DNA of 64,000 nt from an uncultured Desulfobacter sp. Lineage in GTDB: Bacteria > Desulfobacterota > Desulfobacteria > Desulfobacterales > Desulfobacteraceae. A model generated the notes under the pieces. The model ran no database searches. It worked only from the letters and a program-made list of their open reading frames with translations, and was not told the origin of the DNA. The stretch is taken from positions 2,592,001 through 2,656,000 of the forward strand of contig OY762069.1 in NCBI GenBank assembly GCA_963665095.1, read 5' to 3'. Below are positions 39,435 through 48,037 of this stretch, one piece after another; position 1 is the first letter of the stretch, and the number at the start of each line of letters is the position of its first letter. A program made the position numbers and the translations under genes.

Positions 39435-39659
39435 ATGAACAAAACAACCACACAAGACGCAATTGAAGGGCTTAGTTCGATTATTGACAATATTGAAAAG
39501 AAAGAGGGCCACAGCGGCTATCTTCTTGAAAAGCTCACCACCCTGAAGATGGACCTGCTTGACGAATTTTTTACATTGAGCAAACCAGCACCCAAAAAAC
39601 AGAAACCGAAAAAGTCAAAAATCGCATCTGCACCGGCTAAAGCCTCGGACCAAATCTGA
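39435..39659 (+). CDS. Small hypothetical protein
   Basis: GAGGAG RBS; first gene of the co-oriented backbone. Confidence 0.65.
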   Translation: MNKTTTQDAIEGLSSIIDNIEKKEGHSGYLLEKLTTLKMDLLDEFFTLSKPAPKKQKPKKSKIASAPAKASDQI

Positions 39660-39677
39660 TGGAAAGGAGGCCTACTG

Positions 39678-39992
39678 ATGTTTAAAGAAATATACTCCTT
39701 CATACTGTTCTTCATGCCTTTCGCAGTAATAATTAATACTACTTTGTCACTTGATTACCTTTTCAAGGATATTGACCATAGTGCCCGATTGGTTATGGCT
39801 TGGGGCACTAATTTGACATTACTAATTCTTGGTTATTTCAGTCTTTGGTTTATCCTGATTTTTCTCGTTCTAATAACAGCTGCGACCTTGTTCGTCGCTC
39901 TTAAGAGAAACAACATCAATCATAAGGATATTGAAATTTTAAGCCTTATTTACAATCCAAAACAAAAGGAGGAACGACATGGCGTTTCGTGA
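39678..39992 (+). CDS. Small membrane protein
   Basis: AGGAGG RBS; two or three hydrophobic helices. Confidence 0.65.
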   Translation: MFKEIYSFILFFMPFAVIINTTLSLDYLFKDIDHSARLVMAWGTNLTLLILGYFSLWFILIFLVLITAATLFVALKRNNINHKDIEILSLIYNPKQKEERHGVS

Positions 39993-40215
39993 CATGGTTA
40001 AAGAACGGATAGTAGAGATCAATGAGCAACCAAAACTTGTTCCTGAAATCGTTACCCCTAGAGAAATGATTTTGAGGGCTGGTGAAGACCCTAACGTCCG
40101 TGAACTGATTGTAGCATATGAGAATGATACTACTGACGTATGCCCGATTGATGTACCTATCCGGCTCAAGGATGGAATGCGGTTCGAGACACAGGTGCAA
40201 AGCACAAACGGTTAA
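39979..40215 (+). CDS. Ubiquitin-like (beta-grasp) protein with C-terminal Gly
   Basis: 78 aa, AGGAGG RBS; IVEINE..., IRLKDGMRFET-QVQSTNG-stop; directly upstream of E2-like and E1 genes. Confidence 0.7.
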   Translation: MAFRDMVKERIVEINEQPKLVPEIVTPREMILRAGEDPNVRELIVAYENDTTDVCPIDVPIRLKDGMRFETQVQSTNG

Positions 40216-40283
40216 ACTTAAACTGGTTATAGCTGGGAGGCATTGTTCCTTCCAGCTTTCCATAAATATTTAAGGAGACAATT

Positions 40284-45032: not shown

Positions 45033-46081
45033 TTTTTGATGATAGGAATAATTTCACCAAAAACGATGTAATCAAATCATATAGCTATCTTTCTCACAGA
45101 CAACATGGATTTACAGAGCTTTTAGCTATCCACAAAGATTATAAGCCAGGCAGACAGAATTTTAAGTTAAATCTCGAAAACAAGAGATTGCCAAAAGTCT
45201 GGTATACGAAAAATATAAACCATGTCCTTTGGTTCGTATCAAAGTATCATAAGGATCATACGTGCTGTTATGGTGTCAATCCACGGCCAGGAATTCTGAT
45301 AAATCAAAAAGGCAGGATCAGAAGCGCAAAAGAAGACGATATCAAAATACTAAATAATTTCTATTTCGATATCGATTGCAAAAAGCCGAAATCAGAATTA
45401 ACAGATGAATATTTTGCCGAAGTCCAATTCTTTATCGCAGGAACTGAATGCTTTTTTGAAGACCGGGGTATAAATCCGCCAGGTATCGCTTTTTCAGGCA
45501 GAGGTTTCCACCTTCTCTTCACTCCAATCCCGATTCAAGTTGATAAACATCCAGACATCAAACAAAAAATTATCCAGTTTAAAATCGACTATGAACAATA
45601 TTGCAAAGATTGTCTGGAAAAGCTCAATCTTAAAATCGATTCAACTCTCGACCTTAGACGAATGGTCAAGATCTATGGGACAAGCAAACCCAATGTCTAT
45701 AGGCCATCATTGTTTTATGACATGGAACGAGTTGAAGATCCTGCCCTCACGAAATACCTGATAAACATTGAGGTCGATAATGATTCACCAGCCAAATCAG
45801 TGGTCTATATAAGTTCTGGGCTTCCGCAGAATTTCCAACGAATTTTGGAAAATAACCAATTAATCCAGAAAATCTGGGATGGAACCGGAAAGACTCAAGG
45901 TGATGTTTCAAACTCCGGCTACGATTTCTCATTGGTGAAACTTTGCCTGAAGAACCATATCACTGACATAAATGATTTATCAACGATTCTTGCCTTAAGG
46001 CCGAACGGAGCTTTCCAGAAAAGCGGGAAAGATGAAACGTATATTAAGAGGACTGTAAGCAAGGCCATAATGTCATGTTAA
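45029..46081 (+). CDS. Archaeo-eukaryotic primase-like (RepB/prim-pol) protein
   Basis: YGVNPR, FYFDID, FSGRGFH, DLRRMVKIYGT; helical C-terminus DVSNSGYDFSL...YIKRTVSKA. Confidence 0.72.
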   Translation: MIFDDRNNFTKNDVIKSYSYLSHRQHGFTELLAIHKDYKPGRQNFKLNLENKRLPKVWYTKNINHVLWFVSKYHKDHTCCYGVNPRPGILINQKGRIRSAKEDDIKILNNFYFDIDCKKPKSELTDEYFAEVQFFIAGTECFFEDRGINPPGIAFSGRGFHLLFTPIPIQVDKHPDIKQKIIQFKIDYEQYCKDCLEKLNLKIDSTLDLRRMVKIYGTSKPNVYRPSLFYDMERVEDPALTKYLINIEVDNDSPAKSVVYISSGLPQNFQRILENNQLIQKIWDGTGKTQGDVSNSGYDFSLVKLCLKNHITDINDLSTILALRPNGAFQKSGKDETYIKRTVSKAIMSC

Positions 46082-46272
46082 TGTCAAAAACCCGAAATAA
46101 AAAACCGCCGCGCAAAAAACGGCAGAATAATTCCCTGAAGATCACCTATGAATTTTTGCCGCCAGGTTCCTTGAAGCGCAGACTGCCAGGTTCGGAACAA
46201 TCTGCCAAGCAAAGATGGGAAGAGATTCTTGACATATGTGCTGAAACAATAATCGATAATTCCAAAAAATGA
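46075..46272 (+). CDS. Small basic protein, possible recombination directionality factor
   Basis: 65 aa, K/R-rich, directly upstream of the integrase; function inferred from position only. Confidence 0.4.
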   Translation: MLMSKTRNKKPPRKKRQNNSLKITYEFLPPGSLKRRLPGSEQSAKQRWEEILDICAETIIDNSKK

Positions 46273-46396
46273 CTTTCTCATTTGTACAGTCCCTACAAGA
46301 GTCGATACTATCTTTTTATGATTTATTGCTTGTCAATATTTTAATTTTGGTTTACCATTTCATACAGTTTCTAAATCTTAAACAAAGGACACTGTT

Positions 46397-48037
46397 ATGA
46401 AAAATAGAAAGTGTGCTCTTTATATCCGGGTTTCAACATTGAGGCAGGCAAGTGTTGAGGATGGTTCCCTGGATGCTCAGGAGTCAAGGTTAAGGAAATA
46501 TGTCGATTATGAAAACAGCAGGGATACATTTTGGGAAATATCCGGTGTTTATAGAGAAGAAGGCAGGTCTGGAAAAGACCTCAACCGCCCAGAGTTCCAA
46601 AGGATGATTCAGGATATCAACTCCGGAAAAATAAACACAGTCATCGTATACAAGATTGATCGGCTGACAAGATCGTTGAAAGATTTTTCCAACCTTTGGG
46701 ACCAATTACAGGACAAAGGTGTCGAAATAATCTCATTGAACGAAAAATTCGATACGACAACCGCCATCGGAAGGGCAATGATAAACATCATTCTTGTGTT
46801 CGCACAATTAGAAAGGGAACAGACAAGCGAGCGTACAGCTACAACCATGCAATACCGTGCAGAACAAGGCCTTTGGAACGGCGGCAGGGTTATTGGCTAT
46901 GACCTTGATCCGGATGATAAAGGGACTTTGAAGATCAATGAGGATCAGGCAAAAATTGTGAAAAGAGCATTCAATCTATGCGTTGAGACAGGTTCAGCGG
47001 GCCAGGTCCAGAAGATGTTAAACGAGCTTGGCTACCGGATGCCTGTCTATGAATCAAGGCGTGGAAAAAAGCATGGCGGTAATCTGTTCAACAAGCAAGC
47101 TATCATAAAAATGCTACAAAACCCTGTATATGTCGGCCAGATCACATGGAACGGAGAACAGTATGAAGGAAGGCATGATCCAATCGTTGATGAAAATTTG
47201 TTTTCCAAGGTCCAGGGCATCCTTGGCAAGAACCGGAAAACCAGGTCAAACAGCAAGATGCCAAGAGAGCATACCTATCTTTTGCAAGGGATACTTACCT
47301 GCGGCAAATGCGGGTCTATGATGACGCCCAAAAGTGGGATAGGCCGTTCTAACAGATATTATTATTACCAATGCACCAAACAGGCTCATATTGGAAAGGA
47401 TGCCTGTGATGTCCGGTATGTGCCAGCAGAACCAATTGAAAATTTTGTCGTTGAAAGGGTCAGAGAGCTGACAACTAATGAAGAGGAAATCGATAAGATT
47501 ATCCAAAGGGCAAACAAGAACAGTGATCATAAGATCAGGGAATTGGCAGACACAAAAACGAGCGTTTCCAATAACCTGCAAGAAATAAACAAGAAATTGA
47601 ACCAGATAATAGATTCGATTGAAAACGGAAGCCTAAAAATTTTTGATTCATTAAACAACAGGATAGAATCATTGGAAAAAGAGAGATCAGATGCAGAGGA
47701 TAGGCTGAAATCCATTGATTTTGACATAATGAAGCTTGAACAGGACAGGCTTTCATCTGAGGTCATGAGCCAATCATTCAAATCATTTAAGGATATAATC
47801 GATAAGGCCAAGCCTCAGAAACTTAAAGAGCTGCTGTACAGGATTGTCGAAGTTGTTGAATGGCATGAAAATGATGAAGATAGGGCTTCAGGCCACTGCA
47901 AAATATCATATTTTGAGCAGCCTTACCTAAACTTGCCCCAAAATAAAAAACTGGACGACCAGTGTGGTGAACACCGGTTCGCCCAGAGTATTGTTTGGCT
48001 CCCCAGCACGGACTTGAACCGCGGACTTAGTGGTTAA
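46397..48037 (+). CDS. Large serine recombinase (integrase)
   Basis: YIRVST..Q, SLDAQ, SGKDLNRP, DRLTRS, HDPIV, LQGILTCGKCG...YYQC...C zinc ribbon, coiled coil. Confidence 0.95.
   Translation: MKNRKCALYIRVSTLRQASVEDGSLDAQESRLRKYVDYENSRDTFWEISGVYREEGRSGKDLNRPEFQRMIQDINSGKINTVIVYKIDRLTRSLKDFSNLWDQLQDKGVEIISLNEKFDTTTAIGRAMINIILVFAQLEREQTSERTATTMQYRAEQGLWNGGRVIGYDLDPDDKGTLKINEDQAKIVKRAFNLCVETGSAGQVQKMLNELGYRMPVYESRRGKKHGGNLFNKQAIIKMLQNPVYVGQITWNGEQYEGRHDPIVDENLFSKVQGILGKNRKTRSNSKMPREHTYLLQGILTCGKCGSMMTPKSGIGRSNRYYYYQCTKQAHIGKDACDVRYVPAEPIENFVVERVRELTTNEEEIDKIIQRANKNSDHKIRELADTKTSVSNNLQEINKKLNQIIDSIENGSLKIFDSLNNRIESLEKERSDAEDRLKSIDFDIMKLEQDRLSSEVMSQSFKSFKDIIDKAKPQKLKELLYRIVEVVEWHENDEDRASGHCKISYFEQPYLNLPQNKKLDDQCGEHRFAQSIVWLPSTDLNRGLSG

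What the first reader, a model, noticed from the sequence alone, without database searches (positions are those of the whole stretch)
39435..48037. Ubiquitin-like conjugation cassette built into the replication/translocation/integration backbone of an integrative element
Seen: one co-oriented run of small protein, TM protein, 78-aa Ubl ending STNG, E2-fold protein, JAB-E1 fusion, 11-Cys Zn-finger, HerA/VirB4-like ATPase, TM protein, wHTH-PD(D/E)xK protein, AEP primase, small basic protein and serine integrase. Gaps are mostly a few nt or overlaps. Known: bacterial Ubl/E1/E2/JAB operons (Bil, Bub, CBASS Cap2/Cap3) are described mainly as antiphage systems. Inference: here the cassette is joined to the element's core machinery, more than 15 kb from the defence block. 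Ubl conjugation may therefore regulate or tag the DNA-translocation/replication complex, in an element with no recognisable T4SS, relaxase or capsid genes in the window.
Basis: partly seen in the sequence, partly recalled or inferred. Interest (0 to 1): 0.88.

Follow-up and report, generated by a model that had tools for sequence, protein, structure and literature searches.

The report
Ubiquitin-like tagger inside mobile-element core
A bacterial mobile DNA element carries an unusual version of a known ubiquitin-like protein-tagging pathway inside the gene run that probably copies and moves the element, and its closest relatives hold different tagging pathways in the same place, which hints that the tagging serves the element itself and not only defence against viruses.

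Summary
The cassette is a variant of the Type I Bub oxyester pathway: BubCD orthologue (PDB match E 3e-45, catalytic Tyr371), BubB-like E2 (Ser-x-His) and a BubA-like beta-grasp tag. It lacks BubE, and tag and E2 are separate genes with a conserved hairpin between them. It lies at the integrase end of a 72-kb island at tRNA-Asn.

The full gene order recurs only once (Olavius symbiont, 11 of 12 genes). Primase position and integrase type vary. The steady partner is a Zn-finger / DUF87 ATPase / wHTH-nuclease module. That module usually has no cassette (E1 near 4 of 44 loci found by ATPase search, none Bub-type). In the window's own ATPase clade, however, 4 of 4 assessable elements carry a cassette, of three unrelated types.

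Best reading (0.45): an exchangeable tagging module that works with the element's DNA-handling core. Defence cargo is the main rival (0.3). No target or physical contact was shown. Earlier scan notes describe similar cassette-plus-ATPase elements in other genomes (unchecked). New variant of a known kind.

The parts
35452..37641 (-). Ser/Thr kinase with membrane segment and C-terminal helical domain; part of the divergent block upstream of the operon
   Evidence: Pfam Pkinase E 7e-25; a divergent regulator-like block is seen upstream of most homologous operons; role inferred
37833..39357 (-). Three small divergent ORFs (109, 132, 174 aa); possible regulators
   Evidence: no family hit above noise; the 174-aa ORF has a homologue upstream of the related backbone L098 (E 1e-23)
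39435..39659 (+). 74-aa protein, first gene of the operon
   Evidence: homologue in the same place in L018
39678..39992 (+). 104-aa membrane protein
   Evidence: hydropathy 2.83; absent from L018
39979..40215 (+). BubA-like single beta-grasp tag with exposed C-terminal Gly78
   Evidence: model and fold search; Gly invariant in 9 of 9, with one extra residue after it in 4 of 9
40231..40257 (+). 10-bp RNA hairpin without U-tract between tag stop and E2 ribosome site
   Evidence: z -2.6 here; a 10-13 bp stem at this place in 9 of 9 loci folded, z -2.4 to -3.4, with different sequences; function inferred
40284..40724 (+). BubB-like E2 with Ser110-x-His112
   Evidence: His invariant in 13 of 13, Ser in 12 of 13; only PDB match is Citrobacter BubB, E 0.0011
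40728..42134 (+). BubCD-like JAB peptidase-E1 fusion; JAB E23/H87/H89/D101, adenylation R237, crossover Tyr371
   Evidence: all six invariant in 35 of 35; aligned to BubCD E28/H91/H93/D104 and the GY motif (residue roles from the Ye et al. text)
42149..42658 (+). Cys-rich Zn-finger protein that directly precedes the ATPase gene
   Evidence: alignment of 12; 566 clusters at E<=0.001; adjacent to the ATPase at 14 of 44 ATPase loci; no named family
42663..44012 (+). DUF87/HerA-VirB4-like ATPase, 449 aa
   Evidence: Pfam DUF87 E 6e-8; best NCBIfam hits CedD, VirB4, CedB, all far below cut-off; fused to the wHTH-nuclease in many relatives
44005..44247 (+). Small membrane protein (start at 44005 or 44023)
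   Evidence: hydropathy 2.53; homologues in L018 and L097
44244..45032 (+). Winged helix plus PD-(D/E)xK nuclease fold; H150, E171, D180, E193 invariant
   Evidence: alignment of 12; model pLDDT 83 and fold searches
45029..46081 (+). AEP-family primase-polymerase
   Evidence: motifs DxD, SGxGxH and motif III conserved in 4 of 4 (motif names recalled); Atlas
46075..46272 (+). 65-aa basic protein, possible directionality factor
   Evidence: homologue before the integrase in L018; HTH_17 excisionase-like genes take this place in tyrosine-integrase versions; role inferred
46397..48037 (+). Large serine integrase; its last 13 codons are read from the tRNA's opposite strand
   Evidence: Pfam Resolvase, Recombinase, Zn ribbon; overlap with tRNA-Asn
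47996..48004 (+). 9-bp attachment core; its second copy lies 71.9 kb to the left (G000:C1:2568136)
   Evidence: in 6 of 14 same-genus loci the tRNA is joined to the host gene just left of that copy
47996..48071 (-). tRNA-Asn(GTT), integration target

Best explanation
The cassette is a BubE-less Type I Bub-like conjugation pathway. E1 adenylates the tag's C-terminal Gly, passes it through Tyr371 to Ser110 of the E2, and the E2 puts it on a target lysine; the fused JAB trims or removes the tag (chemistry inferred from orthology, about 0.9 likely). It is an exchangeable module of an integrative element whose core is Zn finger, DUF87 ATPase, small membrane protein and wHTH-nuclease, here with an AEP primase and an integrase. 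That core most likely replicates and mobilises the excised element, the ATPase acting as DNA pump or coupling protein and the nuclease as nickase (inferred). The cassette is co-expressed with the core and acts with it: it reversibly tags a core protein, or a helper or competitor protein that the core must engage, with the Zn finger as the candidate target adaptor (inferred, no direct evidence). What the element seems to keep is tagging activity, not a particular tag chemistry.
For: Shown: Bub orthology and intact catalytic residues. One co-oriented run with -8 to +14 nt gaps from E2 to the primase. The window's ATPase clade (FastTree 0.997; window plus L097/L098 also 98% SH-aLRT) has four members with assessable context: window and L018 (Bub type), L129 (tag-like ORF, E2-like ORF, JAB, minimal Cys-type E1, directly upstream of the Zn finger) and L097 (71-aa peptide, Cys E2-like ORF, JAB-E1, between ATPase and nuclease). 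Their E1s match the window's only over 108-185 residues at 25-31%, so they are separate acquisitions. L129 and L097 were found by ATPase search alone and are the only 2 of 44 such loci with the primase. L066 holds a fourth cassette directly before Zn finger and ATPase. Canonical BubE-bearing operons show no ATPase in the DNA fetched (0 of 3). No recognisable multi-gene defence system among 86 neighbouring proteins scanned, which a general defence hotspot would be expected to show. Ye et al. found no phage protection by any Bub operon tested.
Against: 40 of 44 ATPase-family loci, and 11 of 14 Zn-finger-type loci (3 of them cut short), have no E1 nearby, so the core works without a cassette; Zn type versus non-Zn type 3/14 versus 1/30 is not significant (p 0.088). 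L013 (10 kb each side) and L020 carry this cassette without the ATPase; 10 of 16 close loci lack it, most on short contigs. L002, L007 and L017 are close kin and count as about one event. In L005 and L010 the ATPase is divergent from the cassette, so not co-transcribed. The E2 and tag calls in L066, L097, L109 and L129 rest on motifs; Pfam did not name them. Tested bacterial Ubl pathways (Bil, CBASS Cap2) are antiphage. The transfer role of the ATPase-nuclease pair is itself untested.
Confidence: 0.45

Rival explanations
1. Defence cargo in a hotspot. The cassette is an antiphage or anti-plasmid Bub variant that tags foreign proteins, as Bil does, and sits in the core operon only to be induced with the element; it has no functional contact with the ATPase.
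For: Optional presence (40 of 44 ATPase loci lack an E1); cassettes without the ATPase (L013, L020); the island is full of defence genes (Gabija, Type III RM, pAgo, GmrSD); known Bub operons lie in tRNA-inserted mobile elements and often have CapW or CapH/P regulators; satellites keep defence hotspots (PMC9122126, abstract start only).
Against: What recurs in the slot is conjugation cassettes of several unrelated kinds, not assorted defence systems; in L097 the cassette lies between ATPase and nuclease; the island's recognised defence genes are 16 kb or more away; no Bub operon protected against phage in Ye et al..
Confidence: 0.3
2. Cassette, Zn finger, ATPase and nuclease form one defence machine: tagging primes or releases a HerA-nuclease effector that destroys invading DNA or kills the cell, as Cap2/Cap3 prime CBASS.
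For: Weak similarity of the ATPase to defence ATPases (PADLOC mad8 E 1e-14; HerA_antiphage far below cut-off); nuclease fold neighbours include Can2 and Cdn1; tight coupling in the window.
Against: The ATPase-nuclease pair usually stands without a cassette and next to an excisionase-like gene, an integrase and a tRNA, the pattern of a core gene; NCBIfam's best hits are DNA-transfer ATPases (CedD, VirB4).
Confidence: 0.15
3. Selfish or neutral passenger: a tag/untag addiction module, or a cassette that rides on these elements by shared ancestry and recombination with no joint function.
For: Iyer et al. 2006 proposed addiction-like maintenance for such operons (passage); patchy distribution.
Against: Independent recruitment of three or four non-orthologous cassettes to one backbone is hard to get by drift; catalytic residues are intact throughout.
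Confidence: 0.1

Closest known systems
Type I Bub (6E.1 / DUF6527) operon: BubAB, BubCD, BubE (Ye et al., 10.1101/2024.11.21.623953; main text parts 1-5 of 6 read)
   Same: JAB-E1 fusion with crossover Tyr and no catalytic Cys; E2 with Ser-x-His; beta-grasp tag ending in Gly; location in a tRNA-inserted mobile element.
   Different: No BubE, which the paper says all Bub operons have; tag and E2 are separate genes with a conserved hairpin between them (the paper describes a BubAB fusion, though I also saw separate genes in BubE-bearing operons L023, L044, L045); single-domain tag; embedded before a Zn finger, ATPase and nuclease, which the text read does not mention.
Type I/II Bil and Type II CBASS Cap2/Cap3 (PMC10557695, passages; Ye et al. 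introduction)
   Same: Tag or substrate, E1, E2 and JAB acting without a dedicated E3.
   Different: These use Cys thioesters; BilD is IAD-AAD-CYS and Cap2 an E2-E1 fusion with a CD-NTase; none of that is here. Their role is shown to be antiphage.
Iyer, Burroughs and Aravind 2006 class 6 operons (PMC1779556, passages) and the PRTRC cassette (description recalled; TIGR03736 weak hit)
   Same: Ub-like E1/E2/JAB genes carried on ICE-like elements and plasmids.
   Different: The passages seen name no link to a DUF87 ATPase, wHTH-nuclease or primase; PRTRC is ParB-linked with other E2/E1 families (recalled).
Mobilisable elements with their own coupling protein and a MOB-C relaxase (PMC5704250 and PMC6499999, passages); actinomycete AICEs (recalled)
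   Same: An FtsK/HerA/VirD4-class ATPase beside a restriction-endonuclease-fold protein, small membrane proteins, primase, integrase, no mating-pair genes.
   Different: No Replic_Relax or MOB profile hit; ATPase lacks its own membrane anchor and is often fused to the nuclease; none is described with a conjugation cassette in the passages seen.

Membership tests
Type I Bub | JAB-E1 fusion with intact JAB site | tested here: met
   E23, H87, H89, D101 invariant in 35 of 35; BubCD match over both domains, E 3.4e-45
Type I Bub | Crossover-loop Tyr in place of a catalytic Cys | tested here: met
   G370-Y371 invariant, aligned to the GY motif of Citrobacter BubCD; other Cys are in two Zn-knuckle pairs
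Type I Bub | E2 with Ser-x-His | tested here: met
   the accompanying Asp was not placed with certainty (the window has a Ser where most homologues have Asp)
Type I Bub | Beta-grasp tag ending in Gly | tested here: met
Type I Bub | BubAB fusion | tested here: not met
   stop codon and 68-nt gap with hairpin; separate genes in 9 of 9 loci folded
Type I Bub | bubE (DUF6527) present | tested here: not met
   PF20137: 0 in the complete own genome, 0 of 4 genomes holding relatives (some incomplete); 0 of 19 loci by BLAST (many short); positive controls L023, L044, L045
Type I Bub | Oxyester conjugation activity | not testable with these tools
   needs biochemistry
Bil (Type I/II) | E1 and E2 with catalytic Cys; IAD-AAD-CYS E1 | tested here: not met
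   E1 is JAB plus one adenylation domain with Tyr; E2 has Ser
Type II CBASS | CD-NTase and E2-E1 fusion | tested here: not met
   no CD-NTase among the 39 window ORFs scanned; only local E1 similarity to E1-E2 models
MOB-C relaxase plus coupling protein | Restriction-endonuclease fold with acidic catalytic motif | tested here: met
   D180-x12-E193-x-E195-L-x2-K199 resembles the MOB-C motif as recalled from memory, without its final Arg-Tyr
MOB-C relaxase plus coupling protein | Match to a relaxase family profile | tested here: inconclusive
   0 of 12 members hit Replic_Relax in Pfam; no solved MOB-C structure to compare (PMC6499999 passage, 2019)
MOB-C relaxase plus coupling protein | oriT nicking and mobilisation | not testable with these tools
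   needs experiment
Site-specific integrative element | Direct-repeat att cores, empty site in relatives, integrase | tested here: met

The most novel reading that the evidence does not exclude
An undescribed family of integrative elements uses interchangeable ubiquitin-like cascades (Bub oxyester, Cys-E2 peptide and minimal-E1 types) as a reversible switch on its own DNA pump and nickase, with the conserved Zn finger as an E3-like adaptor. That would be a non-defence role for bacterial ubiquitination and a biological function for a Bub pathway.
Probability: 0.22. Interest if true: 0.9.

Novelty: new variant of a known kind. Interest (0 to 1): 0.66.

Why it matters
The biological role and targets of Bub pathways are open: the describing paper found no phage protection. 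This locus names candidate partners (Zn finger, ATPase, nuclease) in the same operon and gives natural swap experiments, because sister backbones carry unrelated cassettes. If tagging controls the element's transfer, bacterial ubiquitination has a job beyond immunity. Even if it is defence cargo, it is a BubE-less Bub lineage and an element family that I did not find in the paper searches run.

Tried and rejected
Single-protein scan of genome contigs found nothing; the alignment scan did. Viral contigs held no relative of the JAB-E1 or the primase; the ATPase alignment was too diverse for that scan. PHROGs gave no capsid or tail family among 27 island proteins, so a prophage reading was dropped. 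Plasmid search with the ATPase gave 17 distant records, all under 60% identity; their contexts were not opened. Promoter and terminator scans were at chance level (26 vs 26.1; 8 vs 8.2), so they say nothing on a transcript boundary. No RNA holder was listed. Contigs of four runs showed no usable excision joint; a second contig ending at the tRNA did not match this genome's left flank, so it is not evidence of an empty site here. A complex prediction for E2 with the Zn finger was lost and the tool then became unavailable: no result either way. Sequence search of the PDB did not recognise the tag or the primase. The Atlas lead for the Zn finger (Siva, 0.80) is weak. An orphan tag-like ORF in L099 could not be confirmed (hhalign probability 0.7%). 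The window's 132-aa ORF does not align with the similar-placed ORF of L066. The careful ATPase tree did not finish; quick and FastTree trees were used. ATPases of 920-1044 aa (L064 first copy, L067, L068) and L116 (below the 1e-40 cut) were left out of the 44 as a different architecture; one of them (L064) has its own JAB-E2-E1 block, and that E1 lies 9 kb from a counted ATPase and was not scored. Regions were fetched for 8 of 9 hits, 22 of 28 and all new hits except G809. Broad genome searches scored only 3-4 candidates a genome, so their tallies are lower bounds. Supplementary Table S1 of Ye et al. was not seen and may list related operons.
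Full report
Observation. The twelve co-oriented ORFs are present as described, nine of eleven gaps lying between -14 and +18 nt. The ATPase most likely starts at 42663. The integrase runs into the opposite strand of tRNA-Asn.

The element. In 6 of 14 same-genus loci the tRNA is joined to a host gene that in this genome lies 72 kb to the left. 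A 9-bp core, identical to the tRNA's 3' end, stands at both ends (G000:C1:2568136 and window 47996), so the island is about 71.9 kb and begins 24 kb before the window. It is composite: pAgo, GmrSD, Gabija, Type III RM, IS elements, an RHS protein, and a second DUF87 ATPase (29% identical) with a tyrosine recombinase, ParB, ArdC and RadC. No mating-pair or capsid family was found among the ORFs scanned. The left core opens a 155-aa ORF in the integrase's reading frame; homologues start at the same core twice in the Olavius record, so the integrase gene appears to be split by integration (inference).

The cassette. A profile of 35 close JAB-E1 proteins matches Citrobacter BubCD over both domains (E 3.4e-45; next family 1e-21). 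The JAB residues, the adenylation Arg and Tyr371 are invariant. The E2 profile hits only BubB, with Ser-x-His in register. The tag's best folds are Bub-operon Ubls. By Ye et al. (10.1101/2024.11.21.623953, parts 1-5 of 6 read) these residues carry the tag as Tyr and Ser oxyesters. Two defining features fail: BubE is absent from this complete genome and from 4 of 4 genomes with relatives, while controls were found; and tag and E2 are separate, with a 10-13 bp hairpin between them in 9 of 9 loci, perhaps raising tag over enzyme levels (inference). The close homologues form one clade (FastTree 0.948). So it works like Type I Bub but is not a standard member.

From cassette to backbone. After removing three duplicates, 16 close and 3 distant loci were examined. 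One, in the Olavius Delta 1 symbiont record, repeats 11 of the 12 genes in order at tRNA-Asn. An ATPase of this family is present at 6 of 16 close loci (three are near kin; two are divergent) and 3 of 3 distant loci, where integrases are tyrosine (L016, L021) or serine (L022) type and the primase is upstream or missing. L013 and L020 are real negatives; most other negatives are short contigs. Three canonical BubE-bearing operons have no ATPase in the DNA fetched.

From backbone to cassette. In draws of 400 genomes each from the class and phylum, the ATPase family was found in 7 and 15 genomes and BubCD-like proteins in 4 and 3, never in the same genome apart from the window's own (lower bounds). 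Of 44 ATPase loci fetched without using E1, 4 have an E1 within about 3 kb, none of Bub type: 3 of 14 with the Zn finger, 1 of 30 without (p 0.088). The core therefore does not need a cassette. But the window's own ATPase clade is different. L129 has the same backbone (Zn finger, ATPase, membrane proteins, nuclease, primase, integrase) with a tag-like ORF, E2-like ORF, JAB and minimal Cys-type E1 upstream of the Zn finger. L097 has the same backbone with a 71-aa peptide, Cys E2-like ORF and another JAB-E1 between ATPase and nuclease. With the window and L018 that is 4 of 4 assessable members and three unrelated chemistries; L098 is cut at the relevant place and four further members have no context. 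L066 adds a fourth type before a Zn finger and ATPase. The E2 and tag calls in these loci rest on motifs only. Among 86 neighbouring proteins PADLOC gave scattered single-domain hits and no complete system.

The core. The ATPase is DUF87/HerA-VirB4-like with intact Walker motifs and is often fused to the wHTH-PD(D/E)xK protein. It usually sits beside an excisionase-like gene, an integrase and a tRNA. Reviews note mobilisable elements with their own coupling protein and a restriction-fold MOB-C relaxase (passages of PMC5704250 and PMC6499999). The pair here fits that plan in fold, but no relaxase profile matched. A replication and mobilisation role is inference.

Mechanism. Shown by sequence and structure: an intact Bub-type cascade in one run with the core. 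Inferred: oxyester chemistry (about 0.9); DNA mobilisation by the core (about 0.6); that tagging acts with the core, perhaps through the Zn finger (0.45). Rivals: defence cargo (0.3), a single tag-primed ATPase-nuclease defence machine (0.15), passenger (0.1). No physical contact was tested successfully.

What is known. Ub-like operons on mobile elements are known since Iyer et al. 2006 (passages), and Ye et al. place their two Bub operons in tRNA-inserted elements. I found no paper on a BubE-less Bub or on these ATPase elements in six searches of the held library; the library lacks most subscription papers and Table S1 of Ye et al. was not seen. Four earlier notes of this scan describe conjugation cassettes beside HerA-type ATPases on other integrative elements, one archaeal. 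I reached the pattern before reading them, did not check their loci, and do not count them as support.

Verdict. Real, partly as interpreted. New variant of a known kind, on an element family I could not find described. Interest 0.66.

Noticed in passing
G000:C1:2568136-2568603 (L048:3136-3603), left end of the island, outside the window: A 155-aa ORF starts at the left att core in the integrase's frame and looks like a ParB-type HTH tail; on the excised circle the integrase would gain it. Homologues start at the same core twice in G418 and one lies upstream of the L022 element.
   Followed up: partly
L048:16090-19997 (window about -10900 to -7000): A second DUF87 ATPase with an RHH protein and XerA-like recombinase; a close relative of this unit appears to have interrupted a window-type backbone in L102.
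   Followed up: partly
window 3038-9313: RHS/YD-repeat protein with SpvB and TcdB_toxin_midN domains and a neighbouring LamG protein, in the island.
   Followed up: no
window 10170-23126 and L048:9299-15559: Gabija, Type III RM, DUF4391 and SNF2 helicase; further left a long pAgo and a GmrSD nuclease.
   Followed up: no
window 28000-31000: Very low GC (25-27%) stretch with a 505-aa ORF of no family and an imperfect inverted repeat near 28769-28921.
   Followed up: no
L016:9337-9519, L021:5343-5531, L022:9148-9429: In the distant BubE-less lineage the tag slot holds short ORFs of about 60 aa ending in a Pro-Pro-x-x-Phe-x-x-Gly-like motif rather than a recognisable 78-aa beta-grasp.
   Followed up: no
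L064:2122-8674: A separate JAB, E2, E1 block directly before a 924-aa HerA-type ATPase, 9 kb from a second ATPase element.
   Followed up: no
L006, L012, L013, L015, L101: A RemA-like (DUF370) gene recurs inside these elements, and NlpC/P60 genes follow the E1 in L009 and L019.
   Followed up: no
L099:12495-17217 and L103: Cassette-less Zn-ATPase elements carry a tubulin/FtsZ-like GTPase, a kinase and a vWA protein before the integrase.
   Followed up: no
L129:269-4146: Portal-, prohead-protease- and capsid-like ORFs (judged by eye) lie just beyond the integrase of the L129 element; possibly a neighbouring satellite.
   Followed up: no
G000:C1:900717-900790: The genome has a tRNA-Pyl.
   Followed up: no
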